Shown: positions 896 to 57,104, numbered from the stretch's first letter. The stretch is 61,261 nt of DNA from an uncultured Bacillota bacterium (GCA_902492995.1 CABUNR010000004.1:1-61261), one strand, 5' to 3'. The notes: generated by a model from the sequence alone, not told the origin. Numbers and translations are program-made.

Positions 896-3272
896 ATGCT
901 TAAGAAAAAAATGATACGTGATATACGACAAAATTTATCTCAATTTATTACAATATTTTTGATGGTACTTATTGGAGTAATGGTTTATGTTGGTATTGAA
1001 GCATATATGGATGGAATGATAAATACCGCTGATAAATTTTACAAAGAAAATAATTTGGAAGATTTAAATGTTATTGGAGAATTAAACAATGATGATTTAG
1101 AAAAAATAAAAAAAATAAATCATGTTAAGAATGCAGAAGAGAAACTTGTTGTATCAGGCATAGACGCAACTGATAAAAATAAGTCATACTTAATCAGTTT
1201 TATAAATTCTAATAATATTTCAGAATTTTATATAATTGATGGAGAAAAATTTGATGCTTCAAAAAAAGGAGTATGGGTAGATAATTTTTATGCAGAAAAA
1301 AACAATTTAAAAGTTGGAGATACATTAAAAATTAAATATGAAAAAAATATATTAGAAGAAAAAATTCTAGGTTTAATTAATGTACCAGATCACATTTATG
1401 ATTTGAAAGATGAATCTGAACTTGTGCCAAATAGAAAAAATTTTGGATTTATTTATTTATCTATGAATGAAATTCCAAAAGATTATATAGAAGAATTAAT
1501 TGCTAAAAAAATGAATGTAGAAAAAGATAGTTTAAGTAGTATAATACCTAATTATGATTATAAAAATTATATTATATATAATTATATAATGGTTGATATT
1601 GTTAATAAAGAAAATACTAAAAATGTTAAAGAAAAAATAGAAAAAGAAATAGAAGATGCAAGTTTAATAGTAAAAGCTGAAGATACTTTGTCATATTTAA
1701 GATATCAAGGTGAAATAGATGAAGGAGCATCATACGTTGGAATATTTTCTGGGTTATTCTTATTTATTGCAATGCTTTCTGTAATTACAACAATGACAAG
1801 AGTAATTAAAAGACAAAAAATTCAAATTGGTACTATGAAAGCACTTGGTATAAGTAAGAGAAAAATAATTATGCATTATATTGGATACGGATTTTTCGTT
1901 TCATTAATTGCATCAATATTTGGAATGTTACTTGGAAGATTTTTTATAGGTGAAATTTTCTTAAATTTAGAGATGAGCTATTTTGAAATACCTAATGGAG
2001 TTCCAGTTATTGCAGGTAAAAGCTATATAGTTTCTTTAATGGTAGTTTTAATAGTTTCATTTATAACTTATTTAACATGTAGAAAAGAACTTTTAAAAAA
2101 GCCAGCAGAAGCACTTAGAAATGATGTTCCTAATGTTAAGATTAAAAATCTTAATTTATCAACCAAAGGAATATTTAAAAAATTAAGTTTTAAAAGCAAA
2201 TGGAATTTTAGAGATATACTTAGAAATAAATTTAGAACATTAACGGCCGTAGTTGGAATAGTAGGATGTTGTATGCTTATTGTATGTGCTTTTGGAATGC
2301 TAAATAGTATGAATCATTTTGTAAAACTTCAATATAGTGATTTATATAATTTTAATTATAAATTAACACTAAAAGAAAATTTAAATGATGAAGAGATTAA
2401 TACATTAGTTGATAAATATGGTAATTCAACTAGTGAAACATTATCTATAGAAATACAAAATAAAAATGAAAAAGAGACAAATACAATATTTGTAACAGAT
2501 GCTAAAGATCTAGTAAAATTTCAAAATCAAAAAGGAAAATATATTAATATTGATAATAATGATGGAGTCTATGTAACAAGAAAACTTGCAAAAGAAAAAA
2601 AATATAAAGTAGGAGATACTATAAAATGGCATGTTTATGGTGTAGATAAATACTTTGAATCTAAAATTGTAGGGTTTACAAAAGATCCACAAGTTCAAAA
2701 TTTAACAATGACAAAAAAATACTTAGAAAGTTTAAATATAACATATAACATATAAACCAGATGCTTTATATACAAATGAAAATTTAAAAAGTGTAAAAAG
2801 TATAGATGGCGTTAGTGTAGTTCAAGATATAAAAGAACTAGAGGATAGTATGGAATCAATGCTTTCTATGCTAAAAAGTATGATTATGCTTATAATTGTA
2901 TTTGCAATAGGGCTTGGAGCAGTAATTATATATAATATGGGCATATTATCATATAGTGAAAAACAATATCAATTTTCAACATTAAAAGTATTAGGATTTA
3001 GTGATTCTAAAATAAAGAAAATTTTTATTGAACAAAATATATGGATTACAATTGTATCTATAATAATTGGAATGCCAATGGGATATTATTTAACATCATA
3101 TATATTTAAAAAAGTTATTGCGGATAATTATGATTTTAATGCTTATATTAAATTAAGTACATATCTAATTGCTGCAATAGGTACATATGTAGTGTCATTT
3201 ATTGTATCTAAATTGTTAGCAAAGAAAATAAATAAAATAGATATGGTATCTAGTTTAAAAGCAAATGAATAA
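896..3272 (+). pseudogene. FtsX/MacB-family ABC permease, frameshifted by a 7-bp tandem duplication
   Basis: ORF fragments 896-2755 and 2850-3272 (true reading resumes about 2755 in another frame). ACATATA is duplicated at 2741-2747 and 2748-2754. Removing one copy gives a continuous ...LNITYKPDALYTNENLKSVKSIDGVSVVQDIKELEDSMESML... FtsX-type permease with two 4-TM FtsX domains. Confidence 0.8.
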
Positions 3273-5929: not shown

Positions 5930-5956
5930 AAACACATCTAAAAGATGTGTTTTTAT
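5930..5956. terminator. Bidirectional terminator hairpin shared by tRNA-Arg (+) and the endonuclease gene (-)
   Basis: AAACACATC (5930-5938) / GATGTGTTT (5944-5952), flanked by an A-run on one side and a T-run on the other. Confidence 0.7.
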
Positions 5957-6732
5957 TTATATATTTGTAAATCACATAAATCATGATTGTATGTGTAAAT
6001 TTTATTAAATAATTTTTCAATGTTTTCTTTTTTGATTTTAAATAATAAATTTTTGTTTTTATATTTTCCTATATCATTACCACTTTTACCAATTCTTGCA
6101 ATTAAACAAACATCTATAACTCCCTTATTTAAGAGTTCTAAAAATGTATCGAAAGTTTTTAATTTATATAAAGATAGTTCATAATATCTAAAATATTCAT
6201 TATTATTTAAAACTTTTTTACTTGCTTTAACATAAGCTAATGTATTAAACTTTGTAAAAAGATGTGTTTTTATTGTATCAAGATAAATAAATGATTTCTT
6301 TTCAATTAATTTGTTGTTTAAATTATAAACACAAAGAAATATTTTTTCTTCTTTTTTATCAATTTCTAGTTTAAAACTATAATTGTTATTTAAGATTGTT
6401 TTAGTTACACAATTAATATTTGTATTTAAAACTTTTTTATCTTTAAATACTTTATCATAATATCCATACTTTTGTATAATTCGGTTTATTTCTGGAAAAG
6501 TAGGTCCATCAAATGCAACAGAAAATAAACTTAATGGGTATCTACTAAATCTTGTTGAACATTTTATTTCTATACCATAATAATCAGGAAAAAACATTGA
6601 ATCTGCTTTTTTACCCAGTTCATGTTCAAACGTTAGCCCAATATTTCCTAGACTTTTTGATTTTCCTTCTATCCATCCTTTGTTTGCTATTTTTTTAAAT
6701 TTTTCAATAAATTTTTTTGTTTCTTCATTCAT
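5953..6732 (-). CDS. MvaI/BcnI-family type II restriction endonuclease-like protein (solitary)
   Basis: N-terminal block GNIGLTFEHELGKKADSMFFPDYYGIEIKCSTRFSRYPLSLFSVAFDGP fits the family pattern G..G.t.E..LG...N...PD..GiElK..r....ltLF as I recall it. The C-terminal GVIDVCLIARIGKSG...NLLFKIKKENIEKLF resembles the BcnI C-terminus. No methyltransferase is adjacent. Confidence 0.6.
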   Translation of the reverse strand: MNEETKKFIEKFKKIANKGWIEGKSKSLGNIGLTFEHELGKKADSMFFPDYYGIEIKCSTRFSRYPLSLFSVAFDGPTFPEINRIIQKYGYYDKVFKDKKVLNTNINCVTKTILNNNYSFKLEIDKKEEKIFLCVYNLNNKLIEKKSFIYLDTIKTHLFTKFNTLAYVKASKKVLNNNEYFRYYELSLYKLKTFDTFLELLNKGVIDVCLIARIGKSGNDIGKYKNKNLLFKIKKENIEKLFNKIYTYNHDLCDLQIYK

Positions 6733-10541: not shown

Positions 10542-11567
10542 ATGAAAACAGAAGATTTTGACTTTGAACTTCCAGAAAATTTAATAGCACAAACTCCTAT
10601 AAAAGATAGGGATCAATCACGTATGCTTGTTTTAGATAAAAAAACAGGAACTATAGAACATAAACATTTTAATGAAATAATTGATTATTTAGATGAGGGT
10701 GATACTTTAGTTCTTAATGATACAAAGGTTATGCCTGCTAGACTTTATGGGGTAAAAGAGGATACAAATGCCGTTATTGAAATATTATTATTAAAAGAAT
10801 TAGAAGAAAATAATTGGGAATGTTTAACAAAACCAGCTAAGAGAATTAAAATAGGAACAATTGTGTCTTTTGGTGATGGTAGGTTAAAAGCTGAATGCAT
10901 TGAAATAAAAGAAGAAGGTATAAGAGTTTTTAAACTTAAATATGATGGTATTTTATATGAAATACTTGACTCATTAGGAGAAATGCCATTACCTCCTTAT
11001 ATACATGAAAAATTAGCTGATAAAAATAGATATCAAACTGTTTATGCTAAAAATGTAGGAAGTGCTGCAGCACCAACAGCAGGTCTTCATTTTACAAAAG
11101 AACTATTAAAAAAAATAGAAGATAAAGGAGTTAATATCGTCTATATTACTTTACATGTTGGACTTGGAACTTTTAGACCTGTTAATGTAGAAGATGTAAC
11201 TAAACACAAAATGCATAGTGAATTTTATATAATGAATAAAACGGCAGCTGATATTTTAAATAAAGCTAAATTAGAAAATAGAAGAATTATTAGTGTTGGT
11301 ACAACGTCAACTAGAACATTGGAAACAATTATGAATTTATACGGAGAATTTAGAGAATGCTCTGGATGGACTGATATATTTATATACCCTGGATATGAAT
11401 TTAAAGCAATAAATTCTCTTATAACTAATTTTCATCTTCCAAAATCAACCCTTGTCATGTTAGTTAGTGCTTTAGCTGGAAAAGAAAATATAATGAATGC
11501 TTATCATGAAGCAATAAAAAATGAATATAGGTTTTTCTCATTTGGAGATTCAATGTTTATTAAATGA
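10542..11567 (+). CDS. queA: S-adenosylmethionine:tRNA ribosyltransferase-isomerase
   Basis: [14 protein letters not shown]...[26 protein letters not shown] and [10 protein letters not shown] are hallmark QueA blocks. Confidence 0.95.
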
Positions 11568-12520
11568 TAAAAGAATTTAGTATATTAAAAGATACAGTTG
11601 AAGACTATATTTTAAGGTCAAAGGCTAAAGATGAAGATGATTTTAAATTTATGTTAAACCTATCAAAAATAATTATTAATGAAGAACACAGGAATAATAA
11701 TTATGAATATAGTAAAAAATATAATTTAAAAAAAATAGATAATATTGTTTCTGATTTTTTAAATGACTTGAATCAAAAATATAAAGAGTACTATGATTTA
11801 AGAAAAAAAGACGGAACATTTACATTTGATTTAAATAAAGAATCAATAAACAACCAGGCATACAGTACATATGATGATATTAATAATAAAAGAATTATTT
11901 ATATACCTGTAAGAAATACTATAGATGATGCATTTTCGATTGTACATGAATTATTTCATGATATTAATTTAGATGAGAAAGAGGCAAGTTATACAAGAAT
12001 GTTTTATACTGAGGGAATGTCAATATTAGGTGAAATTCTTTTAGAAGATTATTTAGTAAAAAGGCACGTAAAAGATGCCAAAATTCCTATGAATTTTTCA
12101 CTTTATTGTGCAAGAGAAAAAGCTATAGAAGTTGATTTTAATATTAATTTATTATTAGAATATTTAGATGATAATTATTTTGATACGTCAAAAATAATAA
12201 GAGTAATAGAAAATTATCCATTTAGTTATGCTCCTGATTTGGCTGAAATAATATCAAAAATAATAAGCAATGAAGAACTTACATTAGATGATGAGCAAGT
12301 ATATGTAATTGGTACTTTAATTGCAACTTATATGTATGATAGAATTAAAAATAATAAAAATAATATTGTAGAACTTTTTGAACTTAACGAGGAAATAAAA
12401 AATTATAGTTTTGAACAAGTATTGGATTATTTAGATATTGAATATAATAATGTTGATTTAAATGAAGAATCATATAAAAAATTAAAAAAATGTTATAAAA
12501 AATATATTAAAAGTAGGTGA
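11564..12520 (+). CDS. Hypothetical protein with HExxH zinc-metallopeptidase motif
   Basis: SIVHELFHD (HELFH) motif. The start overlaps the queA stop (ATGA), suggesting translational coupling. No family was recognised. Confidence 0.5.
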
Positions 12521-17649: not shown

Positions 17650-17674
17650 AAATAGTTGAAAAACTATTTTTTTT
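17650..17674 (+). terminator. Rho-independent terminator
   Basis: AAATAGTT (17650-17657) / AACTATTT (17662-17669), GAAA loop, T-run. Confidence 0.7.
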
Positions 17675-17740
17675 GTTGTATCATTTATATATGATAAAAC
17701 GATAGTAAGGATGTGTAATATGGTAACTAAATGCAAAACC

Positions 17741-17749
17741 GGGGGGGGG
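17741..17749 (+). repeat. G9 homopolymer in codons 4-6 of the giant pilin gene (candidate slipped-strand phase-variation tract)
   Basis: The read is ...atgcaaaacc gggggggggt...: nine consecutive G in a strongly AT-rich genome, placed between two alternative ATG starts and the pilin leader. Confidence 0.8.
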
Positions 17750-19150
17750 TATTTTTAAGAAATACCAATAAAAAAGGACTAACATTAATAGAACTTTTAG
17801 CGGTAATAGTAATACTAGCTATAATAGCTTTAATCGCAACACCAATTGTAACAAATATAATAAATGATGCAAGAAAAGAAGCCGCAAAAGATAGTACATA
17901 TGAATATGTAAAAGCTATAGAAAATAAAATTGCATTATCTGCATTAGAAGATAGGACATACGAAGATAAAGATGATTATGCATATGATGAGATAAAACCA
18001 GATATAAAATGGACTATCCCAATAGGAGGAATATATAGTTTAAAAAATGGAATAATAACAGAAGGAAAATTTTGTGTAAACAATTATTTATTAAATTATA
18101 AAGAATCCAAGATTAAAGTAGAAGGAACATGTACAAATGAAACATTAAGATTAGATGGAAGTTTAAAACTATCAAGTAATAGTGGGAATTATACATATCC
18201 AGAGGTTGGAACAATAGATATAATAGAAAACAAGGGAAATGGAAAACTAAGTTGTGAATCAAGTGATACTAAGGTTGCGACTTGTTTAGTTAAAGGAAAT
18301 ACAGTAACAGTAAAATCAGGAACAAAAGAAGGAAGTGCAACACTAACAATAACAAGTGAAGCAACAAGTAAATATAAAGAAGCCAAAGCAGCATACTTAG
18401 CTTACACATCAAAAGGATTATTAAGTATAACAGCTAATGGATATAATGGAATATATGACAATAAAGCTCACGGAATAACAGTAAGTACAGGACAAAATGC
18501 AACAGTAAAATATGGTGAAGAAGAAGGGACATATGATAAAGATGAGAGTCCAACTTACACTGATGTAGGAAGTTATACAGTATATTATGAAGTAAGCCAA
18601 GAAGGATATAATACGGTAAGAGGAAGTAAAACAGTAGTAATAACAAAAGCAGATGGAGAGATAACATTAAAAGAGTCAAGTATAAGTATTGCATATAAAG
18701 ATACAAAAGAAATTGATGTTACAAAAAATATAAGTGACGGAAATATAAAAGTAGAAGTACTAAATAAAGATATAGTAGAAGCAGAAATAAAAGATAATAA
18801 AATAGTAATAACAGGAAAAAAACTAGGAACAGGGAAGGTAAAAATAATAAGTGAAGCAACAAGAAACTATAAAGAAAGTAGTACAGAAATAGAAGTAACA
18901 GTAATAAAAGCAAATAATACATTAAAGTTACCAAGTACAAGTGGAAAATATACATATCCAGAAAGTAAAACAATAGAAGTAGAAGGAAACATAAGTGGAG
19001 GATTAATTAAATGTGTATCAGCAGACACTAAAATAGCTAATTGTACAGTAAATGGAAATATAATAACAGTAAAATCAGGAACAAAAGAAGGAAGTACAAC
19101 ATTAACAATAACAAGTTAAGCAACAGAAAATTATAATGAACAAAAATTAT

Positions 19151-19333
19151 CATATGTAGCAATTACAGCTAAAGGAACATTAAGAAGTTATACAGTAGCT
19201 GGATATAATGGTGTATATGACTCTAAAGGACATGGAATCGTAGTAACAAGTTCAGGTTCAACAATAACATATTCAAAAGATGGAACAAACTATACAAATG
19301 AAAATCCAAAATATACAGATGTAGGAGAATACA
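19151..19333 (+). repeat. 183-nt perfect direct repeat, copy 1 (partner at 20117-20299)
   Basis: Base-by-base comparison of the two stretches shows identity over 183 nt. Similarity continues with scattered mismatches to about 19380 / 20346. Confidence 0.9.
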
Positions 19334-20116
19334 CAGTATACTATAAAATCGAAACAGAAGGATATAATGAAATAACAGGAAATGCAAGAGTTGTTATAAC
19401 AAAAGCAGAAGGTGAAATGACATCACCAACAGCAAAAACCCTAACTTATACAGAAAGTGAACAAGAATTAATAAATAGAGGAAGCTCAAGTACAGGAACA
19501 ATAGAATATAAACTAGATAATGGAAGTTATAGTGAAAGTATTCCAAAAGCAACAAATCCAGGAACATATAAAGTATATTATAGATTAGTAGGAGATAAGA
19601 ATCATAAAGATATAGCAGAAAGTTATATAACAGTAACAATAAATAAAGCTGTATTAAGTTATACAGCAAATGGATATACAGGAGTATATGATTCTAATTC
19701 TCATGGAATTGTTGTAACAAGTAAAGGAACAATAAAATATGGTGAGGCAGAAGGAACATATGATAAAGATGAAAGTCCAAAATATGCAGATGTCGGAAAA
19801 TATGTAGTATACTTTAAAATAACAAGAGAAGGATACTATGATATAACAGGAAGTAAAACAATAGAAATAACAAAAGCAAATAATAATATAAAATTATCAA
19901 GTACAAGTGGAAAATATACATATCCAGAGGTTGGAACATTTAAGGTAATAGAAAATCCAAGCAAAGAACAATTATATTGTGAAAGTTCAGATACAAAAGT
20001 AGCGACATGTAAGTTTAAAGAAAATATAATAACAGTAACACCAGGAACAAAAGAAGGAAGTACAACATTAACAATATCAACAAAAGGAAGTAAGAACTAT
20101 AATGCAGGAAAAGCAG

Positions 20117-20299
20117 CATATGTAGCAATTACAGCTAAAGGAACATTAAGAAGTTATACAGTAGCTGGATATAATGGTGTATATGACTCTAAAGGACATG
20201 GAATCGTAGTAACAAGTTCAGGTTCAACAATAACATATTCAAAAGATGGAACAAACTATACAAATGAAAATCCAAAATATACAGATGTAGGAGAATACA
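20117..20299 (+). repeat. 183-nt perfect direct repeat, copy 2 (966 bp downstream of copy 1, in frame)
   Basis: Identical to 19151-19333. The offset of 966 bp equals 322 codons. Confidence 0.9.
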
Positions 20300-22329
20300 T
20301 AGTATATTATAAAATCGAAACAGAAGGATATAATGATATAACAGGAACTGCAAAAGTAGTAATAACAAAAGCAGCTGGAACTGTAGTGGCTCCAACATCA
20401 AAGACATTAACATATACAGGGACATCACAAACTCTAATAAATAGAGGAAGTTCAAGTACAGGATCAATAAGATATAAATTAAATGATGGAAGTTATAGTG
20501 AGAATTTACCACAAGCAACGAATGCTGGAACATATACTGTTTACTATAAAGTGGTAGGAGATAGTAATCATAAAGACGTAGCAGAAAATTCTATTAAAGT
20601 AACAATAGAAAAAGCAACAGGACAAGTAACAGCGCCAACAGCAAAAAACCTAGCATATACAGGAAGTGCACAAACTTTAATAAATGCAGGAAGCTCAAGT
20701 ACAGGAACAATACAGTATAAATTAGATAATGGAAGTTATTCAACGACACTTCCAAAGGCAACAAATCCAGGAACATATAAAGTTTATTATAAAGTAGTAG
20801 GAGATAGTAATCATAAAGATGTAGCAGAATCAAGTATAAATGTAACAATAGATAAAGCAGTAAATTTAATAAAACTATCAAGTAATGTAGGGACATATAC
20901 ATATCCAAAAAGTGGAACATTTGAAGTAACAAGTAATCCAAGTGGAGGAGCATTAAGCTGTATATCAAGTAATACAAATGTAGCTACTTGTTCAGTAAGT
21001 GGCTCAAAAATAACAGTAACACCTGGAACAAAAGAAGGAACTGCAACATTAACAATAAAAAGTGCAGAAACAGCAAATTATAAAGCAGGACAAGCAGCCT
21101 ATGTAGCAACAACAGAAAAAGGATTATTAAGTGTAACAGTAAATGGATATAATAAAGCATATGATGGAGCATCACATGGAATCGTAGTAACAAGTAGTGG
21201 CGCAACAATAAAATATGGTGCGACAGAAGGAACATACGATAAAGATGAAAGTCCAACTTATAAAGATGTAGGTGAATATACAGTATATTATCAAGTAACA
21301 AAAGCTGGATATAAAACAGTAACAGGAAGTGAAAAAGTAGTTATAACAAAAGCCAATGGAAAAGTAACGGCACCAACTGCTAAAACCCTAACTTATACAG
21401 GAACAGCCCAAACATTAATAAATGCTGGAAGTTCAAGTACAGGAACAATTGAGTATAAATTAGAAAGTGGAAGTTATTCAACAAGTTTACCACAAGCAAC
21501 GAATGCTGGAACATATAAGGTTTACTATAAAGTAATAGGAGATAAGAACCATTTTGATGTATCAGAAAACTCAATAAATGTAACAATAGGAAAGAAAGTA
21601 GATACAATTACAGTAACAGCAAAAACATATATATATGATGAAAATGCAAAAACAGCAAGCTTCAAAACAACAAGTGGCTTAACACCAAGTGCGACATATT
21701 ATAGTGAGGCAAGTTGTACAACAACAGTAAGTAGTCCAACTGATGCAGGAGTATACTATGCAAGAGCAACTACTATAGGAAATAGTAATTATAGTGCAGG
21801 AAGTTTAAGTTGTACAAAAGCTATAACAATAAATAAAGCAGGAAATACATTACTATTATCAAGTAATAAAGGAACATATACATATCCAAATAGTGGAACA
21901 TTTACAGTAACAAAAAATATAAGTGGAGGAGCATTAAGCTGTTCATCAAGTAATACAAATGTAGCTACTTGTTCAGTATCAGGAAGTACAATAACAGTAA
22001 AACCAGGAACAACTAAAGGAACAGCAAATATAACAGTAACAAGTGCATCAACAACAAATTATAATTCACAAACATCAACTCATGTAGCAACAACAGAGGA
22101 AGGATTACTAAGTGTAACAGCAAGTGGATATACAGGAGATTATGACTCTAAAGAACATGGAATTGTAGTAACAAGCTCTGGCTCAACAATAAAATATGGA
22201 ACAAGTGAAGGAACATATAACTTAGATTCAAGTCCAAAATATAAAAATTTAGGAACATATACAGTATATTATCAAGTAACTAGGCTTGGATATAAAACAA
22301 TTACAGGAAGTAAACAAGTTATAATAAAA

Positions 22330-23109
22330 GATTTATCTGCACCTAGTACACCAACTATTACAAATCCAACAAATGGAAATTGGACAAATAAAGATTTTAG
22401 TTTAACAGTATCTTCAAGTGATAATGTAGGAATTGCATATTATCAATATAGTTATGATAATTCAAACTGGACAACATATGCTAATTCAGCAGCAACTACA
22501 TATGTAACAACAGCGTTTAGTATAGAAAGAAATCAATTAGTTTATATAAGAGCGTGTGATAGTGCTTTAAATTGTTCAAGTTCATCATCAACTTATATAA
22601 GAATTGATAAAACAGCTCCAACTGTGCCATCACTTACTGGAACAAATACAAGTTGGACAAATCAAAATATAAATGTTAAGCCATCATCAACTGATTCGGG
22701 TTCTGGAGTAAATCATTATGAATCATATTATAGTGGTTCATGGCATAATTATCTATCTAATGATTATTTTACTAGTGAAAGAAACGAGACAGTTTATTTT
22801 AGAGCATGTGATAATGCTGGAAATTGTTCTGGAAATGCTTCGACTGAAATTCATATTGACAAAACAGCTCCAACTAAACCAACATTATCAGGAACAAATG
22901 AAAATTGGACAAATCAAAATGTAAATGTTAGACCATCATCAATTGATTCAGGTTCAGGCGTTGATCATTATGATGCATATTATAGTGGTTCATGGCATAA
23001 TTATCCGTCTAATGATTATTTTAATAGTGAAAGAAATGAACTTGTATATTTTAGAGCATGCGATAAAGCTGGTAATTGCTCTGAATCATCATCAACATAT
23101 ATAAGAATT
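22330..23109 (+). repeat. Three tandem coding repeats (276 + 252 + 252 bp) encoding DKTAP/NWTN...YFRACD..GNCS modules
   Basis: Unit boundaries fall at 22330, 22606, 22858 and 23110 (GAT/GAC AAA AC. .C. CC. motif). Units 2 and 3 are clearly similar at the DNA level. Confidence 0.8.
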
Positions 23110-23714
23110 GATAAAACTACACCTTCAATATCAATAAACACGAAAGCTTTTTATAATCAAAACTTATCAATATATTCTGTATCATACGGAAAAAGTGGTG
23201 GAGCAACAACTTGTATTAATCAAAGTGATGGAAATAAGACAGTATCAAATGTAAATAATTTAGGAAGTTTGGGTTCACATAAAATTACGTGTACGGCAAC
23301 AAGTAATTCTGGAATGAAAGCAACAGCAACAACAAATTTAGTAATTAATGGAATGTTTTCCTATGGAACAGGACTAAGCTTTATAAGCCCAGCTTATGCA
23401 AGTGGTAGCAGTATTATAATTCCACAAGGTGGAATTCAGTATGGCCCATATATTCCGGTGTTACCAGGCTGCTATCAGATTTGGTACAATGGTAATGCTT
23501 TAAATGCAAGTAAAGATGTTTATAAGGCATATAGTGGAGCCGGTGCTGGACCACATTACTCATTAATTAATCAAAATTATATATCTGAAAATTCTAATTA
23601 TTATTTACAATTTAATTCATCAGTTTCTGATTTAGAAACAACAATTTATAATAATACTGCATCAATAATAACAGTCAGGGATGTAAATATATGGTATATT
23701 GGTACTTCATGTTA

Positions 23715-23745
23715 AAAATAGTGTAAATTACGCTATTTTTATTTT
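23715..23745 (+). terminator. Rho-independent terminator after the giant pilin gene
   Basis: AAAATAGTG / CGCTATTTT stem (one G-U pair) followed by a T-rich run. Confidence 0.6.
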
Positions 23746-23804: not shown

Positions 23805-24224
23805 ATGAAAAAAAATGGTTTTACACTAATAGAGCTTTTAGCAGTTTTAACAGTACTTGGATTAATTTCATTAGTAACAGTATCTACAATAACTGGAACA
23901 TTAAAATCATATAAAAATACATTATATGAAAATCAAATTAATAATATAGAAGCTGCAGCAAGATTATGGGCATCTGATAATATGTTAAAATTACCAAATG
24001 ATGATTCATCAACTGAAGTTTGTGAATACGTAAATTATAATAATTGCTCAGATAATTATTATAAGCTAGTTATTACTCTTTCTGAACTTCAAAAAGGTGG
24101 ATATCTTGATACAGATTTAAAAAATGCTAAAACAAAAAAAACATTTGAAAATATAAATATAAATATTATAAAAAAAGGTAAAAAAATTATCTATGAAGTA
24201 AATGATACAGAAAATGAAAGTTAA
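23805..24224 (+). CDS. Type IV pilin / ComGC-like pseudopilin (prepilin N-terminal cleavage/methylation domain)
   Basis: MKKNG|FTLIELLAVLTVLGLISLV: a canonical class III signal with Gly-1, Phe+1 and Glu+5. 139 aa, with its own promoter-like TTGCTA-17-TATTAT upstream. Confidence 0.85.
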   Translation: MKKNGFTLIELLAVLTVLGLISLVTVSTITGTLKSYKNTLYENQINNIEAAARLWASDNMLKLPNDDSSTEVCEYVNYNNCSDNYYKLVITLSELQKGGYLDTDLKNAKTKKTFENININIIKKGKKIIYEVNDTENES

Positions 24225-37723: not shown

Positions 37724-38320
37724 GTGATTAAATTGAGAAAGAGTAAGTTAGAATTAATTAATTTAAAAGTACAAACAAGAAGAAAAGAATTAAAACATAA
37801 AGAAAAAGTAGATAAGGTATGGGTTATTAAAATTATATTAATTTCATTTGTAGTAGCATTAGTATTTGCTTTTGTATCAGAAACTATTATTCCTAATGTA
37901 AATTTAATATTTGGAATTGTTCTTCTTATTTTGGTAATAACTTTAGGGGTAATATTTGATATGATAGGAGTTGCTGTTACTGCAGCAGATATAGTTCCTT
38001 TTAATTCGATGGCATCAAGAAAAGTTAAAGGAGCTAAAATTGCTATTAAATTAAAACAAAATGCTGATAAAGTTTCTTCCTTTTGTAATGATGTTTTTGG
38101 TGATATATGTGGTGTAATTTCAGGATCAATTGGTGTAATTATATCTAGTTCTTTATCAAAAGTTATAAATATTAATAGTTTATATATATCACTATTAGTT
38201 ACGGCAGTAATTGCATCTATAACAATAGGAGCTAAAGCACTTTGTAAAAGTTTTGCTATTAATAAATCAAATATAATACTATATAAATCTTCAAAATTTA
38301 TTAATATATTTTATAAATAA
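37724..38320 (+). CDS. Small 4-TM membrane protein with a highly basic N-terminus (possible OapA-like partner of the upstream RNA)
   Basis: N-terminus IKLRKSKLELINLKVQTRRKELKHKEK, then four hydrophobic segments with intramembrane acidic motifs IFDMIGVA and NDVFGDICGV. The SD TAGGTGA lies 5 nt after the RNA U-tract. The start is GTG 37724 or, better spaced, TTG 37733. Confidence 0.6.
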   Translation: MIKLRKSKLELINLKVQTRRKELKHKEKVDKVWVIKIILISFVVALVFAFVSETIIPNVNLIFGIVLLILVITLGVIFDMIGVAVTAADIVPFNSMASRKVKGAKIAIKLKQNADKVSSFCNDVFGDICGVISGSIGVIISSSLSKVININSLYISLLVTAVIASITIGAKALCKSFAINKSNIILYKSSKFINIFYK

Positions 38321-38333
38321 AATGGTAATATTA

Positions 38334-38362
38334 TTGACTAGAAAAATATATAATGATATAGT
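38334..38362 (+). promoter_or_regulatory. Sigma-A-type promoter (TTGACT-17-TATAGT)
   Basis: -35 at 38334-38339 and -10 at 38357-38362, upstream of the GTG start at 38381 (SD AGGAGTGA). Confidence 0.6.
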
Positions 38363-38380
38363 TAGTGTAGGAGTGATATA

Positions 38381-40039
38381 GTGAAAGATAATAATATAAA
38401 TAGTGAAGATTTAGAAGAAAAAAAAGATAATGAAGTTGTAACTGATCAAGAAGATAATAGCTCTACAGAAGAATTAGACAACATAAAAATAGAAGAGTTG
38501 GCAGATGATAATGTAGATGATGACATTTCAAAAGAGAAAAAAGAAACTACAGAAAAGGATATTTCAAAAGAAGAAAAAGAAATTACAGAAAATGATATTT
38601 CTAATGAAGAAGAAAATAATCAAGTTATAAATGATGACATTTCAAAAGACTTTTCTATTAAGAAAAAAAATAAATCAGTAATTATTATAGCAATTATCGC
38701 TATTTTGGTACTTGCTTTATGCTTATTATATAAGTTTATATATAATCCTAAAAAATTATTTATTAAATCAATTAATAAACAATATACAGAAGTTGAAAAT
38801 TATTTATATGATTTAATTAAAGAAACATCAAATAAAAAAGCTATGACTATTTCAAATAATTTAGAATTTAATGTAAAAGTTGATAAAAGTATATCAAATA
38901 ATAGTACTAATTCATTAATTGATGAAATAAATAAATTAAAATTAAATTCTGAAGTTGGATATGATAAGAAAAACAAACAAATGCTAATAAATGTAAATGC
39001 GTTATATGAAAAAGATTCTATAATAAATTTAATAACATATGTAAAAGATAAAAATCTATATTTAGAACTTAAAGATTTATTTGATAAATATATAATTGTT
39101 CCTGTGGATGATTATAACTCATATTTTAAAAATACAATATCAGAAAGTGATATAAAATATATTTTAAAGAAAACAAAAGATGTTTATATAAATAATTTAG
39201 ATGAAAAGAATTTTAAAAAGAGTAATGGAACAATAAAAATTGATGGAAAAGATACAAAAGTTAGTAAAATAAGTTATGAAATATCACAAAAAGAAGCTTA
39301 TATTTTAGGAGAAAATATTTTAAAAGAATTAAAAAATGATTCAAAATATATTGAGGCATTAGCAACTATTTCTAATGAGGATAAAGAAACAATAAAAAAA
39401 TCAATGAAAAAAGGAATAGAATCATTACAAAAAGATATTTCTTCAAAAGAGTTTGATAGCAAAAATAGAATATCATTTGTTACTTATGTAAAAGGAATTA
39501 CAAATAAATCAGTTGGATATGAAGTATTAGTAAATGGTAGTGATAATGTTAAAATTTCTTATACAAAAGGTGATAATAACACTATAAAGGTAGTAATGAA
39601 TAATGAAGAAATTTTAAATGCACAAATTTATAATGATAAAATTAAAATGTCTATAAATGTAGAAGATAAAAAAATTACTTTTGACATATCAAAGAAAGTT
39701 AATGGTAAAAAAACAACTTATGATTATGATTTAAATATATCTGGAATGAGTGTTACTGGAAATATAATAATAGATATGAAAAAGGAAAATAAAGATGGAT
39801 CATATGAGGCAGAAGTTGATGTAAATGCTAATGTTATGGGATTAGTTAAATTAAATGTTAAAAATACATCAAAAGCTGTAATAACTGATGAATTGAAGCT
39901 TCCAGATTTATCAAATAGTATTAATTATGAAAAATTGACTGATGATGATATTAATAATATTAAATCAAAATTGTATGAAAATAAAGCAATTAAAACATTA
40001 ATTGAAAAATTTAGTAAAAGTGAAGTAGGTTTATATTAA
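38381..40039 (+). CDS. Hypothetical single-pass membrane protein with an acidic repeat-containing N-terminal tail
   Basis: N-terminal 100 aa are rich in D/E/K with reiterated DISKE-type units, followed by one TM (VIIIAIIAILVLALCLL) and a ~430-aa extracytoplasmic part. No family was recognised. Confidence 0.55.
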   Translation: MKDNNINSEDLEEKKDNEVVTDQEDNSSTEELDNIKIEELADDNVDDDISKEKKETTEKDISKEEKEITENDISNEEENNQVINDDISKDFSIKKKNKSVIIIAIIAILVLALCLLYKFIYNPKKLFIKSINKQYTEVENYLYDLIKETSNKKAMTISNNLEFNVKVDKSISNNSTNSLIDEINKLKLNSEVGYDKKNKQMLINVNALYEKDSIINLITYVKDKNLYLELKDLFDKYIIVPVDDYNSYFKNTISESDIKYILKKTKDVYINNLDEKNFKKSNGTIKIDGKDTKVSKISYEISQKEAYILGENILKELKNDSKYIEALATISNEDKETIKKSMKKGIESLQKDISSKEFDSKNRISFVTYVKGITNKSVGYEVLVNGSDNVKISYTKGDNNTIKVVMNNEEILNAQIYNDKIKMSINVEDKKITFDISKKVNGKKTTYDYDLNISGMSVTGNIIIDMKKENKDGSYEAEVDVNANVMGLVKLNVKNTSKAVITDELKLPDLSNSINYEKLTDDDINNIKSKLYENKAIKTLIEKFSKSEVGLY

Positions 40040-50751: not shown

Positions 50752-52044
50752 ATGGAGAAGAAGTTTAGAATTATAAGTATCTTATTTATAATAGGATGTT
50801 TTATTTATTATGGGGGAAGATTTGGATATTATTATATGAAATATAATAAAAAATCTAGTAATACAGAAGAAAGTGAAGTACTTGCTGTTACAATTCAAAA
50901 ACAAGGAATTGTAAGTAGTGGAGATGGTCTTTATAATAATAGTGGTGAACTAATTTATAAGGGTAAAAATGTTAACAATTATTTATCTTACTCTAATATT
51001 TTATGGCGTATTGTAAAAGTTAATAGTGATAATTCAATTGTTTTAGTAACAGATAGTAAGATTAATGACTTAGCTTATGGTGTATCAAATAGTACTTATT
51101 TAAAATCAAATATTAATGATTATTTAAATAAAAGTTTAGAAAATACAGGAATATTTGAGACAATATTAAATAATAAAGAAAAATTATTGACTAAAAATAC
51201 TTTGTGTTTAGATGATGTTAATAATATAAAAAAGATAACTTGTAAAAATAAAGATACAAATATGTATGTTAGTTTATTAAGTGTTAGTGATTATTTAAAT
51301 AGTAAAAATAGTGATAGTTATATTAATAATGTTGATACGTTATGGCTTTATAATAAAACTAGTGATAATAAAGCTTGGTATATAAATAATGGTAAATTAC
51401 TTAAGGGGTCAACACTTAATATGCATGGAGTAAAAGCTGTTATTACTTTAAAAAATACTATAGGTAGTATATCTGGAGATGGATCTTTAAATAATCCTTA
51501 TAAAATAGAAAAAGATGATAATGAAGTTTCATTTAATAAATATGTTAAATTAGGTAATGATTTATATACTATAAATGATATTAATTCATCTAGTATTAAA
51601 CTTGTTTCAACGACTTTAATTAATGATATAACTTCTAGAAGTATTAATTATTATAATAAAAATTTTGATTCTAAAGTTACATCATCTATAGCTTATTATT
51701 TAAATAATAAATATTATAATAGTTTATCATATAAAAATATTTTAACTGATTGTACTTTTTATACAGGTGATTATAATAAATTAACAAATTATGATTATAA
51801 AAATATCTATAAAGGGAAAGTTATATCTAAAGTTGGATTATTATCAATTGCTGATTTAAACTTAAATAATAATTTAACCGATTATTTTACTTTAAATAAA
51901 TTAGATAATAAAATTTATTATGTAAAAAATAATGATACAAATATTTCTTCAATTAATAAAATACGAACTAGTATTTGTATAGATAAAAATACTAAATTAA
52001 AAGGTAATGGAACAAAAACAAATCCATTCGAATTAGAGGTGTAG
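50752..52044 (+). CDS. Hypothetical N-terminally anchored extracytoplasmic protein
   Basis: TM IISILFIIGCFIYYGG followed by an Asn/Ser/Tyr-rich 400-aa region. No family was recognised. Abuts the next gene (1-nt gap). Confidence 0.5.
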   Translation: MEKKFRIISILFIIGCFIYYGGRFGYYYMKYNKKSSNTEESEVLAVTIQKQGIVSSGDGLYNNSGELIYKGKNVNNYLSYSNILWRIVKVNSDNSIVLVTDSKINDLAYGVSNSTYLKSNINDYLNKSLENTGIFETILNNKEKLLTKNTLCLDDVNNIKKITCKNKDTNMYVSLLSVSDYLNSKNSDSYINNVDTLWLYNKTSDNKAWYINNGKLLKGSTLNMHGVKAVITLKNTIGSISGDGSLNNPYKIEKDDNEVSFNKYVKLGNDLYTINDINSSSIKLVSTTLINDITSRSINYYNKNFDSKVTSSIAYYLNNKYYNSLSYKNILTDCTFYTGDYNKLTNYDYKNIYKGKVISKVGLLSIADLNLNNNLTDYFTLNKLDNKIYYVKNNDTNISSINKIRTSICIDKNTKLKGNGTKTNPFELEV

Positions 52045-55481: not shown

Positions 55482-57104
55482 ATGGGAAAAATAATAAATA
55501 TAATAAAAAAATATCTTAGTTTAATAATTAAATATATAAAAATATTTATAAATAAAATAAAAAGTTTTTTAAAGCAAATAAAAAATAAGATAAATATTAA
55601 AAAAGAAAAAAATGAAAAAAGTAAAATTAAAATATTTTTGATAGGATTTTTTTCATATGTTGGTAGTGTAGTTGGATATTTAATAGCAAAACCAAAAGAA
55701 CCATTAAAAGAAATAGAAAAAATAAATAAAAGGGCTATTAATATAGAAAAAGAAATAGAAAATGAAATATCACCATTTGTACTTAAAACATATAAAAAAG
55801 AAATTAATAAAAAAATACAAAAATTAGAGAAAATAAAAAATATTAAAACAAGAGAAGAAATAAAAGAAATAAAAAAAGAAGAAGAGCATCTTTTAAATCT
55901 AAATAAAAAAATAGAAGAAAAATTAATTAATATAGGTAGTTTAGAAAAAGACAAAGTAAAAAGTGAAATAAAAAATAAAGAAGAGAAAAAATTTTTAGAA
56001 ACAGAAAACAAAGTAGAATTAAATAATAATAAAAAAATAAATAAAGAAGTAATAAAAAATAAAGTAGATACTAATTTAAAAAAAGTAGTAATTACATCAA
56101 AAAAAGGTTTGAAAAAAATAAAAAATGCAAGTTTAATAGGTGGAACATTATTATTAAATAAAATAGTCAAAATAAAAAAAGAAGAAACCAAAAAAAAGAT
56201 AGAAAAACTAGATAAAAATGATAATATAAAAAAAGAAATAATAGAATTTAATAATATAATTAATAAAACTTATAATGAAGTAAGAGACAATAATAATGAA
56301 ATAGATTTATTAGAAAAAAAGAAAAAAATAGAAGAGTTAAAACAAAAATATATAGAATTAACTAGATATGATGATTTTATATATTTGAAAGATGATTATA
56401 AGATTAATAGTATTGATTCAAATCATTTAGTATATCATGACAAATCAATAGATGATTTAATTGATTATTTAAATAATAGAATAGATGAAGTTGAAAAAGA
56501 AAAAGCCTTGAGAGAAAAAGACTTATTAAATGAAAAGAAAAAAGTTAATGATATAATGCTTGCTAAAACTAGCATTAAAGAAGATATTAGTTTGAGTATG
56601 AGAGAAATAAAAAAAATAAAGAAAGATATTTTAAGAATTCCTACTAGTTATAAAAAACCAAATTTAATAACAAGATTATCTAATTTCTTTAAATATTCTA
56701 TCAATGTTGGTATAAGTTTAATTCCATTTGGAATATTTAAAAATAAATTACTAGCAACATTAACAAGTGGAATAATTTTAAATAATAGAATAAGATGTAT
56801 GAATTCCATTATTTCAAATAGTGATAAAGTTGCTTTTATAGAATATGAGAATATTTTAGCAAATTTAAATGATAGAAAAAATTACTTAGAAAATACTAAC
56901 TATGTTTTATTAGATACAATAAGTCAAATAGACTTGTTAAAAATAAAATTAAATGAAATAGATATTAATAATTCAGAAAAAGAAAAACTATTAGTTGGAT
57001 TAGATGAAATGAAATTAGATCTTTTAGAAGAAAATTTAAAAGTAGAAACAACTTTAGAAGAAGTAAATAAAATAGGAAAAAATAAAATAAAAATAAAGGA
57101 GTAA
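55482..57104 (+). CDS. Hypothetical Lys/Glu/Ile-rich coiled-coil membrane protein
   Basis: 540 aa with extreme K/E/I/N composition. One hydrophobic segment is near the N-terminus (IFLIGFFSYVGSVVGYLIA) and one near residue 400. The coding strand was chosen because the product continues into a plausible C-terminal domain and is followed 1 nt later by the next gene. Confidence 0.5.
   Translation: MGKIINIIKKYLSLIIKYIKIFINKIKSFLKQIKNKINIKKEKNEKSKIKIFLIGFFSYVGSVVGYLIAKPKEPLKEIEKINKRAINIEKEIENEISPFVLKTYKKEINKKIQKLEKIKNIKTREEIKEIKKEEEHLLNLNKKIEEKLINIGSLEKDKVKSEIKNKEEKKFLETENKVELNNNKKINKEVIKNKVDTNLKKVVITSKKGLKKIKNASLIGGTLLLNKIVKIKKEETKKKIEKLDKNDNIKKEIIEFNNIINKTYNEVRDNNNEIDLLEKKKKIEELKQKYIELTRYDDFIYLKDDYKINSIDSNHLVYHDKSIDDLIDYLNNRIDEVEKEKALREKDLLNEKKKVNDIMLAKTSIKEDISLSMREIKKIKKDILRIPTSYKKPNLITRLSNFFKYSINVGISLIPFGIFKNKLLATLTSGIILNNRIRCMNSIISNSDKVAFIEYENILANLNDRKNYLENTNYVLLDTISQIDLLKIKLNEIDINNSEKEKLLVGLDEMKLDLLEENLKVETTLEEVNKIGKNKIKIKE

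What the first reader, a model, noticed from the sequence alone, without database searches (positions are those of the whole stretch)
17707..17758. G9 tract positioned to act as a three-state translational phase switch for the giant pilin
Nine consecutive G (17741-17749) sit in codons 4-6 of the pilin ORF in a genome where G/C runs are otherwise absent. There are two candidate starts. ATG 17720 is served by a good SD (AAGGA at 17707-11, 8-nt spacing), but in the G9 state it stops after 12 codons at TAA 17756-58. ATG 17731 is in frame with the pilin but has no SD. Adding one G (G10) puts the SD-served ATG 17720 in frame, giving MVTKCKTGGGVFLRNTNKKG|LTLIE.... G8 leaves no in-frame start. Length changes of a single G would therefore toggle between weak/ON, strong/ON and OFF. 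This is the classic slipped-strand phase-variation logic known from Neisseria, Haemophilus, Campylobacter and Mycoplasma surface genes.
Basis: partly seen in the sequence, partly recalled or inferred. Interest (0 to 1): 0.7.

Follow-up and report, generated by a model that had tools for sequence, protein, structure and literature searches.

The report
Poly-G on/off switch in pilin gene
A run of nine G's at the very start of a giant pilus-protein gene in an uncultured gut bacterium differs in length between strains and shifts the reading frame, so it is very probably a slipped-strand on/off switch: a well-known kind of device, here in a new gene family and organism.

Summary
G9 (17741-17749) is the only G/C run longer than 5 in 61 kb, where chance predicts 0.004-0.008 such runs. 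It lies in the leader-peptide codons of a type IV pilin-like gene. ATG17720 has a normal Shine-Dalgarno (SD) site but stops after 12 codons. ATG17731 is in frame but has almost no SD.

Relatives support a switch. The same locus in other gut metagenomes (96-100% identical) carries G8 or G9. The G8 allele L014 keeps at least 952 open codons with no in-frame start. Two other gene lineages show G8/G9 and G9/G10/G11, again with matching frame changes. Across homologues the conserved leader peptide (MVTKCK...FLRNTNKKG) is the ATG17720 frame, so G10 is the inferred full-ON state. G10 was not seen in this lineage. GGG is only 4% of glycine codons here, so the tract is not kept for coding reasons.

This is slipped-strand translational phase variation, like Neisseria pilC. 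The start codons sit in two frames, as in Haemophilus licA. The weak/strong/off expression levels are untested.

It truncates a roughly 1994-codon modular pilin to 462 aa.

Verdict: a new member of a known kind, of moderate interest.

The parts
17656..17684 (+). Promoter-like site TTGAAA-17 nt-TATCAT for the pilin gene
   Evidence: Consensus scan, 10 of 12 matches. The TATCAT hexamer and its surroundings are conserved in L001, L002, L014 and L021. Not statistically enriched; function is inferred.
17707..17711 (+). Shine-Dalgarno AAGGA, 8 nt upstream of ATG17720
   Evidence: duplex energy -6.4 kcal/mol, close to the median of ORF starts in the window.
17720..17722 (+). Start codon 1 (SD-served). 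Its frame is the conserved leader-peptide frame. It is out of frame at G9 and stops at 17756-17758. ATG17711 lies in the same frame.
   Evidence: Leaders MVTKCK/MITKCK/MITSCK/MVANS... are conserved in this frame among homologues.
17731..17733 (+). Start codon 2, in frame with the pilin at G9, with a very weak SD
   Evidence: -2.8 kcal/mol. Gene callers used the equivalent ATG in L002, L003, L004 and L023.
17741..17749 (+). G9 homopolymer, the hypermutable tract
   Evidence: Unique in the window. G8 or G9 at the same locus in other samples. Alignment A3 shows the tract as the main variable element.
17756..17758 (+). TAA that ends the 12-codon ATG17720 frame in the G9 state
17776..17796 (+). Prepilin cleavage motif: Gly(-1) codon GGA, then LTLIEL with Glu at +5
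   Evidence: PF07963 at 29.7 bits (cut-off 21.2) and TIGR02532 at 29.8 bits (cut-off 16.3).
17731..19119 (+). Pilin ORF as it stands (462 aa): leader, 55-residue N-terminal helix, small beta head, then a chain of Ig-like domains
   Evidence: AlphaFold2 model with mean pLDDT 87.9. Foldseek matches to titin, protocadherin, S-layer proteins and phage SU10 virion/tail chains.
19117..19119 (+). In-frame TAA nonsense codon; relatives have GAA (Glu) here
   Evidence: T->G at 19117 in L014. P0001 reads ...TLTITSEATENY. P0124 and P0125 from other contigs end at the same place.
19120..23715 (+). Continuation of the same reading frame (1531 codons) with more Ig-like/OmpL47-type modules. Listed as a separate 1432-aa ORF from ATG19417.
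   Evidence: Same frame as 17731. NCBIfam OmpL47-type barrel domain. Tandem 243- and 252-nt repeats.
23805..24224 (+). Small pilin-like gene (139 aa, MKKNG|FTLIE) with a canonical short leader and no tract

Best explanation
The G9 run is a hypermutable simple-sequence repeat (a contingency locus) in the leader-peptide codons of a giant modular type IV pilin-like surface protein. The host is an uncultured low-GC Firmicute (Bacilli-type) and the scaffold comes from a gut metagenome. Slipped-strand mispairing during replication adds or removes a G. Each change moves the pilin body between three frames relative to two upstream start codons. At G10 (or G7) the SD-served ATG17720 is in frame; this is the ancestral, full-expression state and gives the leader MVTKCKTGGGVFLRNTNKKG. 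At G9, the state in the window, ATG17720 stops after 12 codons and only the SD-poor ATG17731 is in frame, giving low or no expression. At G8 or G11 no start is in frame, so the gene is OFF. Shown here: the frames, the SD difference, tract-length polymorphism at this locus and in two related lineages, intact ORFs behind out-of-frame tracts, and conservation of the ATG17720-frame leader. Inferred: the slippage mechanism, high-rate reversible switching within a population, and the expression level of each state. In this allele a second lesion, TAA at 19117, limits any product to 462 aa.
For: 1. The tract is unique in the window and far beyond chance.
2. The same locus, next to an identical M16 peptidase gene, was found in other samples: L017 (100% identical) has G9, L023 (98.0%, Hadza sample) G9, L014 (99.1%) G8 and L015 (95.7%) G8. 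The flanks of the tract are otherwise conserved.
3. L014 (G8) has no in-frame start, yet its pilin frame stays open for at least 952 codons to the end of the locus. That marks a switched-off gene, not a decayed one.
4. A second lineage (47% aa identity, different neighbours) has G8 in L003 and L004 (second-ATG frame, MQKWGG...) and G9 in L018 (first-ATG frame, MVTKCKNGGGYLSNTHKG). These are three samples of one study with otherwise identical flanks.
5. A third lineage has G9 in frame (L012, and P0111/P0128), G10 out of frame (L019, where the gene caller fell back to an internal Met) and G11 out of frame (L009, at least 1202 codons open).
6. Over all coding-leader tracts of G8 or longer: 4 have the SD-served ATG in frame (L005, L008, L012, L018), 5 are in the second-ATG frame, and 6 have no start.
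7. The leader peptide is conserved in the ATG17720 frame across homologues. The interrupted tract of L001 (GGAGAGGGGG) has the same length as G10 and is in frame.
8. GGG makes up 4% of Gly codons in the window's ORFs, so three consecutive GGG codons have p about 6e-5. The homopolymer is therefore not a by-product of coding for Gly-Gly-Gly.
9. All 16 G/C runs of 7 or more in 167 kb of fetched loci lie at pilin leaders or a pilin promoter. This is partly biased, because six of the loci were selected for having a tract.
10. No Rfam family and no unusual RNA structure cover the site.
Against: No G10 (full-ON) allele of this lineage was found in the databases; every allele seen is G8 or G9. G9 recurs in strains that are 2% diverged (window and L023), which could mean G9 is a stable, functional state rather than a transient one. 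All the data are consensus metagenome assemblies, some at low coverage (Hadza contigs at about 4x), so within-population heterogeneity and switching rate are unobserved. Individual tract lengths could carry assembly error. The window allele has a nonsense codon and the paralogue L021 has another, so some family members are decaying. No pilus assembly genes or prepilin peptidase lie in the 61 kb.
Confidence: 0.8

Rival explanations
1. Fixed gene with ATG17731 as the genuine start. Under this reading G9 is the normal functional state, the tract simply encodes Arg-Gly-Gly, and the upstream 12-codon frame is a small uORF. G8 alleles are rare loss-of-function mutants rather than one phase of a switch.
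For: G9 in the ATG17731 frame occurs in three contigs, including a strain 2% diverged. The paralogue at the uvrA-adjacent locus (L002; P0007 and P0122 on two contigs) has an interrupted tract, GGAGGGGG, that sits in the second-ATG frame. It encodes a complete 288-aa protein with the family's conserved C-terminal motif.
Against: ATG17731 has almost no SD (-2.8 against a median of -6.8 kcal/mol). The peptide conserved among homologues is the ATG17720 frame. The second ATG is absent in other tract-bearing lineages (MVANSNF...), and in L022 its TTG counterpart is closed by a stop codon. G8 alleles occur in 2 of 5 contigs, which is too common for a rare null. Rare GGG codons are retained.
Confidence: 0.12
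2. Pseudogene decay. The gene is dying, and the frameshift at the tract and the TAA at 19117 are two of several accumulating lesions with no regulatory meaning.
For: The window allele carries both lesions. L015 has several stops downstream. L021 has a nonsense codon after the helix.
Against: Out-of-frame alleles L014, L009, L019, L010 and L003 keep 393 to more than 1202 uninterrupted codons. In-frame alleles of the same genes exist (L018, L012). The tract recurs at the same position in diverged lineages and species. The TAA allele is shared by in-frame, tract-less alleles P0124 and P0125, so it looks like a length polymorphism rather than decay.
Confidence: 0.05
3. Artefact. The differences in tract length (G8, G9 and so on) are homopolymer errors of sequencing or assembly, and the true sequence is an in-frame G10 everywhere.
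For: All the sequences are metagenome assemblies and some contigs have low coverage. Homopolymers are the classic place for indel errors.
Against: The same length was recovered independently (G9 in three contigs, G8 in two; G8 twice and G9 once in the second lineage). Errors would need to hit only these tracts, in contigs that otherwise agree at 98-100%. Short-read consensus errors at G8-G10 are uncommon (general knowledge). No assembly shows G10 at this locus.
Confidence: 0.03

Closest known systems
Neisseria gonorrhoeae/meningitidis pilC1 and pilC2 poly-G translational phase variation (Jonsson et al. 1991, as summarised in PMC5320596)
   Same: [quoted passage not shown]
   Different: PilC is a pilus-tip adhesin with a Sec signal peptide in a Gram-negative pathogen. 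Here the tract lies in the class III (prepilin) leader of the pilin-like protein itself, in an uncultured low-GC Firmicute. A second start codon is open in a second frame. No sequence homology was tested or is expected.
Haemophilus influenzae licA (lic1) CAAT-repeat switch with alpha, beta and gamma initiation codons (PMC2212159)
   Same: Start codons upstream of the repeat occupy two of the three frames: two (alpha, beta) share one frame and one (gamma) sits in another. Two repeat states therefore allow translation and the third gives none. The window has the same layout: ATG17711 and ATG17720 in one frame, ATG17731 in another, and none in the third.
   Different: licA uses a tetranucleotide repeat, not a homopolymer, and encodes a cytoplasmic choline kinase in an LPS-decoration pathway. 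Use of both frames is documented there and only inferred here.
Campylobacter poly-G contingency genes (the 'phasome'; PMC6321876, PMC539331)
   Same: A low-GC genome in which G/C homopolymers of G8 or longer are otherwise rare. They concentrate in surface-structure genes and vary between strains (listed; details from general knowledge).
   Different: Campylobacter is a proteobacterial pathogen whose tracts affect flagellar, capsule and LOS genes. Here the host is a different phylum and the targets are a multigene family of pilin-like proteins. Mismatch-repair status is unknown here.
Modular type IV pilins of Streptococcus sanguinis, PilB and PilC (PMC8179133, PMC9934059)
   Same: A pilin module (leader ending in Gly, long N-terminal helix, small beta head) is fused to extra functional modules in a monoderm bacterium. 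The best PDB sequence match for the N-terminus is S. sanguinis-type PilE1, 8pfb.
   Different: The added modules here are long chains of Ig-like domains (462 aa as truncated, about 1994 codons if read through) instead of a single vWA or lectin module. The gene is not in a pil operon. Phase variation is not reported for the S. sanguinis pilins in the papers listed.

Membership tests
SSR-mediated translational phase variation (contingency locus) | A simple-sequence repeat long enough to slip (homopolymer of about 7 or more) inside the 5' part of a coding region | tested here: met
   G9 at 17741-17749, 8-21 nt downstream of the candidate start codons.
SSR-mediated translational phase variation (contingency locus) | Tract length differs between otherwise near-identical strains or populations | tested here: met
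   G9 in the window, L017 and L023; G8 in L014 and L015, at 96-100% flank identity. Also G8 against G9 in L003/L004 against L018.
SSR-mediated translational phase variation (contingency locus) | Length changes move the ORF in and out of frame with its start, while the downstream ORF stays intact in OFF alleles | tested here: met
   Simulation. L014, L009, L019 and L010 keep 393 to more than 1202 open codons without an in-frame start.
SSR-mediated translational phase variation (contingency locus) | High-frequency, reversible switching within a clonal population (mixed tract lengths in reads or colonies) | not testable with these tools
   Only consensus assemblies are available; there are no reads and no cultures.
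SSR-mediated translational phase variation (contingency locus) | Protein expression follows tract length | not testable with these tools
   Needs reporter fusions, proteomics or immunoblots.
Two-frame multi-start switch (licA type, three expression states) | Initiation codons upstream of the repeat in two different frames, and none in the third | tested here: met
   ATG17711 and ATG17720 share one frame, ATG17731 is in a second, and there is no ATG/GTG/TTG in the third.
Two-frame multi-start switch (licA type, three expression states) | Both frames are actually translated, at different levels | tested here: inconclusive
   SD energy is -6.4 against -2.8 kcal/mol. Alleles fixed in the second frame (L002; P0007/P0122) look intact. 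The second start is not conserved outside the MVTKCK subgroup. There are no expression data.
Type IV pilin / class III signal peptide protein | Short charged leader ending in Gly, followed by a hydrophobic segment of about 20 residues with Glu at +5 | tested here: met
   ...NTNKKG|LTLIELLAVIVILAIIALIATP. PF07963 at 29.7 bits (cut-off 21.2) and TIGR02532 at 29.8 bits (cut-off 16.3).
Type IV pilin / class III signal peptide protein | Long N-terminal alpha-helix packed on a beta-sheet head | tested here: met
   AlphaFold2 model: helix at residues 19-73, then strands at 80-133; mean pLDDT 87.9. PDB sequence hits to the PilE1, MshA and geopilin N-termini.
Type IV pilin / class III signal peptide protein | Prepilin peptidase and assembly ATPase/platform encoded in the genome | tested here: inconclusive
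   None among the ORFs of the 61-kb window. The rest of the genome was not available.
Type IV pilin / class III signal peptide protein | Incorporated into, or displayed on, a filament | not testable with these tools
   Needs purification or imaging of pili.

The most novel reading that the evidence does not exclude
A clade of uncultured low-GC gut Bacilli, found in human, pig, rabbit and reindeer MAGs, may run a whole family of giant Ig-repeat modular pilins as a combinatorial contingency system. Several paralogues per genome each carry a poly-G tract written into the prepilin leader, and in at least one case into the promoter spacer. In one subgroup a second start codon makes the switch graded (strong, weak, off) rather than binary. 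That would be an SSR 'phasome' controlling surface adhesins, or phage or IgA targets, in commensal Firmicutes. Current gene callers largely miss it, because out-of-phase alleles are truncated or not called.
Probability: 0.4. Interest if true: 0.65.

Novelty: new member of a known kind. Interest (0 to 1): 0.5.

Why it matters
Slipped-strand contingency loci are textbook biology for a few pathogens: Neisseria, Haemophilus, Campylobacter, Helicobacter and mycoplasmas. They are hardly documented in uncultured commensal Firmicutes of the gut. My literature searches found no report of a repeat in a prepilin leader. If the switch is real, these bacteria vary stochastically whether they display very large Ig-repeat pilins. 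Such proteins are likely adhesins and likely targets of phage or secretory IgA, which bears on colonisation and strain dynamics. There is also a practical point. In out-of-phase alleles, automatic annotation drops or truncates genes of 1000-2000 codons. In L014, for example, an ORF with at least 952 open codons has no called start. Metagenome catalogues therefore under-report this family.

Tried and rejected
- **Metagenome scan.** The scan of metagenome contigs for ATATGGTAACWAAATGCAAA gave one chance hit, L006, which is not a pilin.
- **Related loci.** I ran a DNA pattern on genome contigs instead.
- **G10 allele.** A second protein search using the predicted G10 N-terminus returned mostly small pilins and no G10 allele of this lineage. 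P0125 could not be looked up.
- **Taxonomy.** Cluster look-ups of housekeeping proteins returned no names. The organism stays 'uncultured Bacilli-type Firmicute'. That label comes from the names of related MAG records and from sporulation and cell-wall genes in the window.
- **RNA element or structure at the tract.** No credible Rfam match, and the folding z-score is -0.32. Rejected.
- **Alternative genetic code to explain the in-frame stop at 19117.** Rejected. The codon is TAA, relatives have GAA, and all other ORFs are intact under table 11.
- **Conserved second start across the family.** Checked in L022: a TTG sits at the equivalent place, but that frame closes at once with TAA. The second start is therefore specific to the MVTKCK subgroup.
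- **Pilus machinery next to the gene.** None in the window.

Full report
**1. The observation**

- The window reads ...AAGGA(17707-11)TGTGTAAT ATG(17720) GTA ACT AAA TGC AAA ACC GGG GGG GGG TAT TTT TAA(17756-58)... A second ATG at 17731 opens the frame MQNRGGVFLRNTNKKG|LTLIELLAVIVILAIIALIATP..., which runs 462 codons.
- The nine G's at 17741-17749 are the only G or C run longer than 5 in 61,261 bases at 25.9% GC. The single C5 lies inside a tRNA-Leu gene. Chance predicts 0.004-0.008 runs of this length.
G7/G10 put ATG17720 (and ATG17711) in frame. G6/G9/G12 put ATG17731 in frame. G8/G11 leave no ATG, GTG or TTG in frame.
- Pairing energies with the 16S rRNA tail are -6.4 kcal/mol upstream of ATG17720 and -2.8 upstream of ATG17731. 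The median of 48 ORF starts in the window is -6.8, and the median of all ATG triplets is -1.8. 'Good SD' against 'no SD' is therefore correct.
- One small correction: in the ATG17731 frame the G's occupy codons 4-7.

**2. The gene**

- The N-terminus is a prepilin-type cleavage/methylation domain. PF07963 scores 29.7 bits (cut-off 21.2) and TIGR02532 scores 29.8 bits (cut-off 16.3). The nearest solved sequence is the type IV pilin PilE1, 8pfb.
- An AlphaFold2 model built on 24 homologues has mean pLDDT 87.9. It shows a disordered leader, a 55-residue helix (residues 19-73), a small beta head (80-133) and then a string of Ig-like sandwiches. Foldseek matches titin, protocadherins, S-layer proteins and chains of the phage SU10 virion and tail.
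- This is therefore a modular type IV pilin in the sense defined for Streptococcus sanguinis PilB (PMC8179133), but much larger.
The same frame continues for another 1531 codons to 23715.
- The 99%-identical allele L014 and the 91%-identical P0001 have GAA at that codon. Alleles on two other contigs (P0124, P0125) end at the same place. The stop is thus a real, shared length variant and not a sequencing error.
- The gene sits alone among housekeeping genes: M16 peptidases upstream; a small canonical pilin gene, an rRNA methylase gene, rimM and trmD downstream. No pilus assembly genes lie anywhere in the window.
- A promoter-like TTGAAA-17-TATCAT lies at 17656-17684.

**3. Where the window comes from**

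The window is scaffold_397 of ENA assembly ERZ28658892 (sample SAMEA3449313), a metagenome scaffold. Related MAG records are labelled uncultured Bacilli or Lactobacillales from reindeer, pig and rabbit. The window also encodes SpoIIIAH, a germination protein, FemAB and Mur ligase. I could not name the organism more closely.

**4. Test of the switch at this very locus**

I looked up contigs that encode exactly the same upstream M16 peptidase, or a variant at least 90% identical. This gave the same locus from other samples.

| Contig | Identity to window | Tract | Frame |
|---|---|---|---|
| window | - | G9 | ATG17731 |
| L017 | 100% | G9 | ATG17731 |
| L023 (Hadza sample) | 98.0% | G9 | ATG17731 |
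| L014 | 99.1% | G8 | no start |
| L015 | 95.7% | G8 | no start |

- In the alignment of the leader region the flanks are conserved and the tract is the main variable element.
- In L014 the G8 state leaves no in-frame start. The gene caller called nothing over the N-terminal part, yet the pilin frame is open for all 952 codons up to the end of the fetched DNA. An intact ORF behind an out-of-frame repeat is the signature of a phase-OFF contingency gene rather than a pseudogene.

**5. The same device in related genes**

- Homologues mostly have canonical short leaders such as MKKKG|FTLIE. A subgroup has long leaders of the form MV(T/A)x(C/S)K...GGG.(F/Y)L(R/K)NTNKKG. That conserved peptide is the ATG17720 frame.
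- Proteins that start MQNRGG, MQKWGG or MQNRRG are the second-ATG frame, called by gene finders when the first is out of frame.
- Lineage 2 is 47% identical and has different neighbours. L003 and L004 have G8 and the second-ATG frame. L018, from a third sample of the same study, has G9 and the first-ATG frame (product P0126, MVTKCKNGGGYLSNTHKG).
- Lineage 3 has the MVANSNFGGGYLKNTNKKG leader. L012 has G9 in frame. L019 has G10 out of frame, and the caller fell back to an internal Met (P0129). L009 has G11 out of frame with at least 1202 codons open.
- A pattern scan of 185,579 species genomes looked for G8 or longer within 35 nt upstream of an AT-rich GFTLIELLA motif. It found six loci in five MAGs, at least four of them from animal guts. 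Two tracts are in frame (L008, L012) and three are out of frame (L009, L010, L011). In the sixth, L007, the G9 lies not in the coding region but in the spacer of a TTGATT-18-TATAAT promoter in front of a canonical pilin gene.
- Over all coding-leader tracts of G8 or longer, 4 have the SD-served start in frame, 5 are in the second-ATG frame and 6 have no start.
- The close homologue L001 has an interrupted tract (GGAGAGGGGG) exactly as long as G10 and is in frame with the first ATG. It gives MVTKCKAGEGAFLRNTNKKG. This fits G10 as the ancestral ON length of the window's tract.
- GGG is only 4% of glycine codons in the window's ORFs. GGG-GGG-GGG kept across lineages therefore points to selection for the homopolymer itself.

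**6. How it most likely works**

- Shown: the three frames, the unequal ribosome-binding sites, natural length polymorphism with the predicted frame consequences, intact OFF alleles, and recurrence of the tract at the same position in diverged paralogues and species.
- Inferred from established knowledge of simple-sequence contingency loci: replication slippage changes the run by one G at high frequency and reversibly. A population therefore always holds cells in each phase, and selection (adhesion, phage, antibody) picks among them.
- G10 should give full expression from ATG17720, and G8/G11 none. G9, the state of the window, can at most use the SD-poor ATG17731.
- Whether G9 gives a real intermediate level is open.
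  - For: the two-frame layout of starts is the same as in H. influenzae licA, where both frames are used (PMC2212159). G9 recurs in strains 2% apart. The uvrA-adjacent paralogue (L002; P0007 and P0122) has an interrupted tract fixed in the second frame, yet encodes a complete protein with the family's C-terminal motif.
  - Against: the weak SD, and the second start is not conserved outside the MVTKCK subgroup. In L022 the equivalent TTG frame closes at once.
- I put the contingency-locus reading at about 0.8 and a functional graded third state at about 0.4.
- In this particular allele any product stops at residue 462 because of TAA19117.

**7. Rivals**

- *Fixed gene starting at ATG17731* (0.12). 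Supported by the recurrence of G9 and the L002-type alleles. Weakened by leader conservation in the other frame, the poor SD, frequent G8 alleles and retention of rare GGG codons.
- *Pseudogene decay* (0.05). The window and L021 carry nonsense codons, but OFF alleles are otherwise intact and ON alleles exist.
- *Homopolymer sequencing error* (0.03). The same lengths were recovered independently in several assemblies, and no assembly shows G10.
- Transcriptional slippage or ribosomal frameshifting on the G run could leak expression in any state. It cannot be tested here and would modify the model, not replace it.
- No RNA family or unusual structure covers the site.

**8. Comparison with known systems and novelty**

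- Mechanistically this is the translational phase variation described for Neisseria pilC. There a poly-G run of G9-G15 sits in the 5' coding region of a pilus-associated protein and varies between strains (PMC5320596). The start-codon arrangement is that of licA.
- The setting resembles Campylobacter, a low-GC genome whose rare poly-G runs mark surface contingency genes (PMC6321876).
- Three things are new. The host is an uncultured gut Firmicute. The target is a multigene family of giant Ig-repeat modular pilins. The repeat is placed inside the class III (prepilin) leader, which is removed from the mature protein, so any in-frame length is tolerated.
- My literature searches found no report of this arrangement, but they cover open-access papers only.
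- I file it as a new member of a known kind, with interest about 0.5.

Noticed in passing
window 19117-19119 (and 17731-23715 as a whole): A single in-frame TAA splits one reading frame of about 1994 codons into the 462-aa 'pilin' and a '1432-aa ORF'. Relatives L014 and L001 have GAA there, and alleles P0124/P0125 on other contigs end at the same codon, so it is a shared length polymorphism.
   Followed up: yes
L007 (reindeer Bacilli MAG CAJOJO010000013.1), minus strand, about 35 nt upstream of the GFTLIE codons at reverse-complement position 7960: A G9 run lies in the 18-nt spacer between TTGATT and TATAAT, upstream of a canonical MKKKG|FTLIE pilin gene. This may be a transcriptional (promoter-spacing) version of the same switch.
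   Followed up: partly
L014, L002 and L021 (all from sample SAMEA14100618); L020: One metagenome holds three paralogues with the same MVTKCK-Gn-FLRNTNKKG leader at different loci (M16-adjacent, uvrA-adjacent, ABC-F-adjacent). Their tracts are G8, GGAGGGGG and G6. L021 also has a GAA->TAA nonsense codon just after the N-terminal helix. L020 (uvrA-adjacent, another sample) is in the third frame, and the gene caller started at a TTG inside LTLIE.
   Followed up: partly
window 20411-20859 and 22603-23083: Tandem repeats of 243 nt and 252 nt (about 1.8-1.9 copies, 81-85% matches) lie inside the giant ORF. BLAST also shows larger diverged internal repeats. Together with homologue lengths of 288-1232 aa, this suggests recombination-driven length variation of the Ig-like array.
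   Followed up: no
window 896-2755 and 2850-3272: An FtsX/MacB-type ABC permease appears split into two ORFs, each with an FtsX domain, downstream of an ABC ATPase (184-894). This could be a frameshift, a stop, or a genuine two-gene arrangement.
   Followed up: no
window 5953-6732 (-): An MvaI/BcnI-family restriction endonuclease gene (Pfam E = 1.4e-33) lies between tRNA genes, on the opposite strand to nearly all other genes. No methyltransferase partner was looked for.
   Followed up: no
window 17650-17676: An AT-rich hairpin (ATAGTT-GAAA-AACTAT) followed by T8 lies just after the M16 peptidase gene and overlaps the -35 element of the pilin promoter. It looks like an intrinsic terminator, but the scan missed it because the stem has no G-C pairs.
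   Followed up: no
window 37724-40039, 50752-52044, 55482-57104, 11564-12520: Several sizeable ORFs (198-552 aa) have no Pfam match at E <= 1e-4 or 1e-5. They were not examined further.
   Followed up: no
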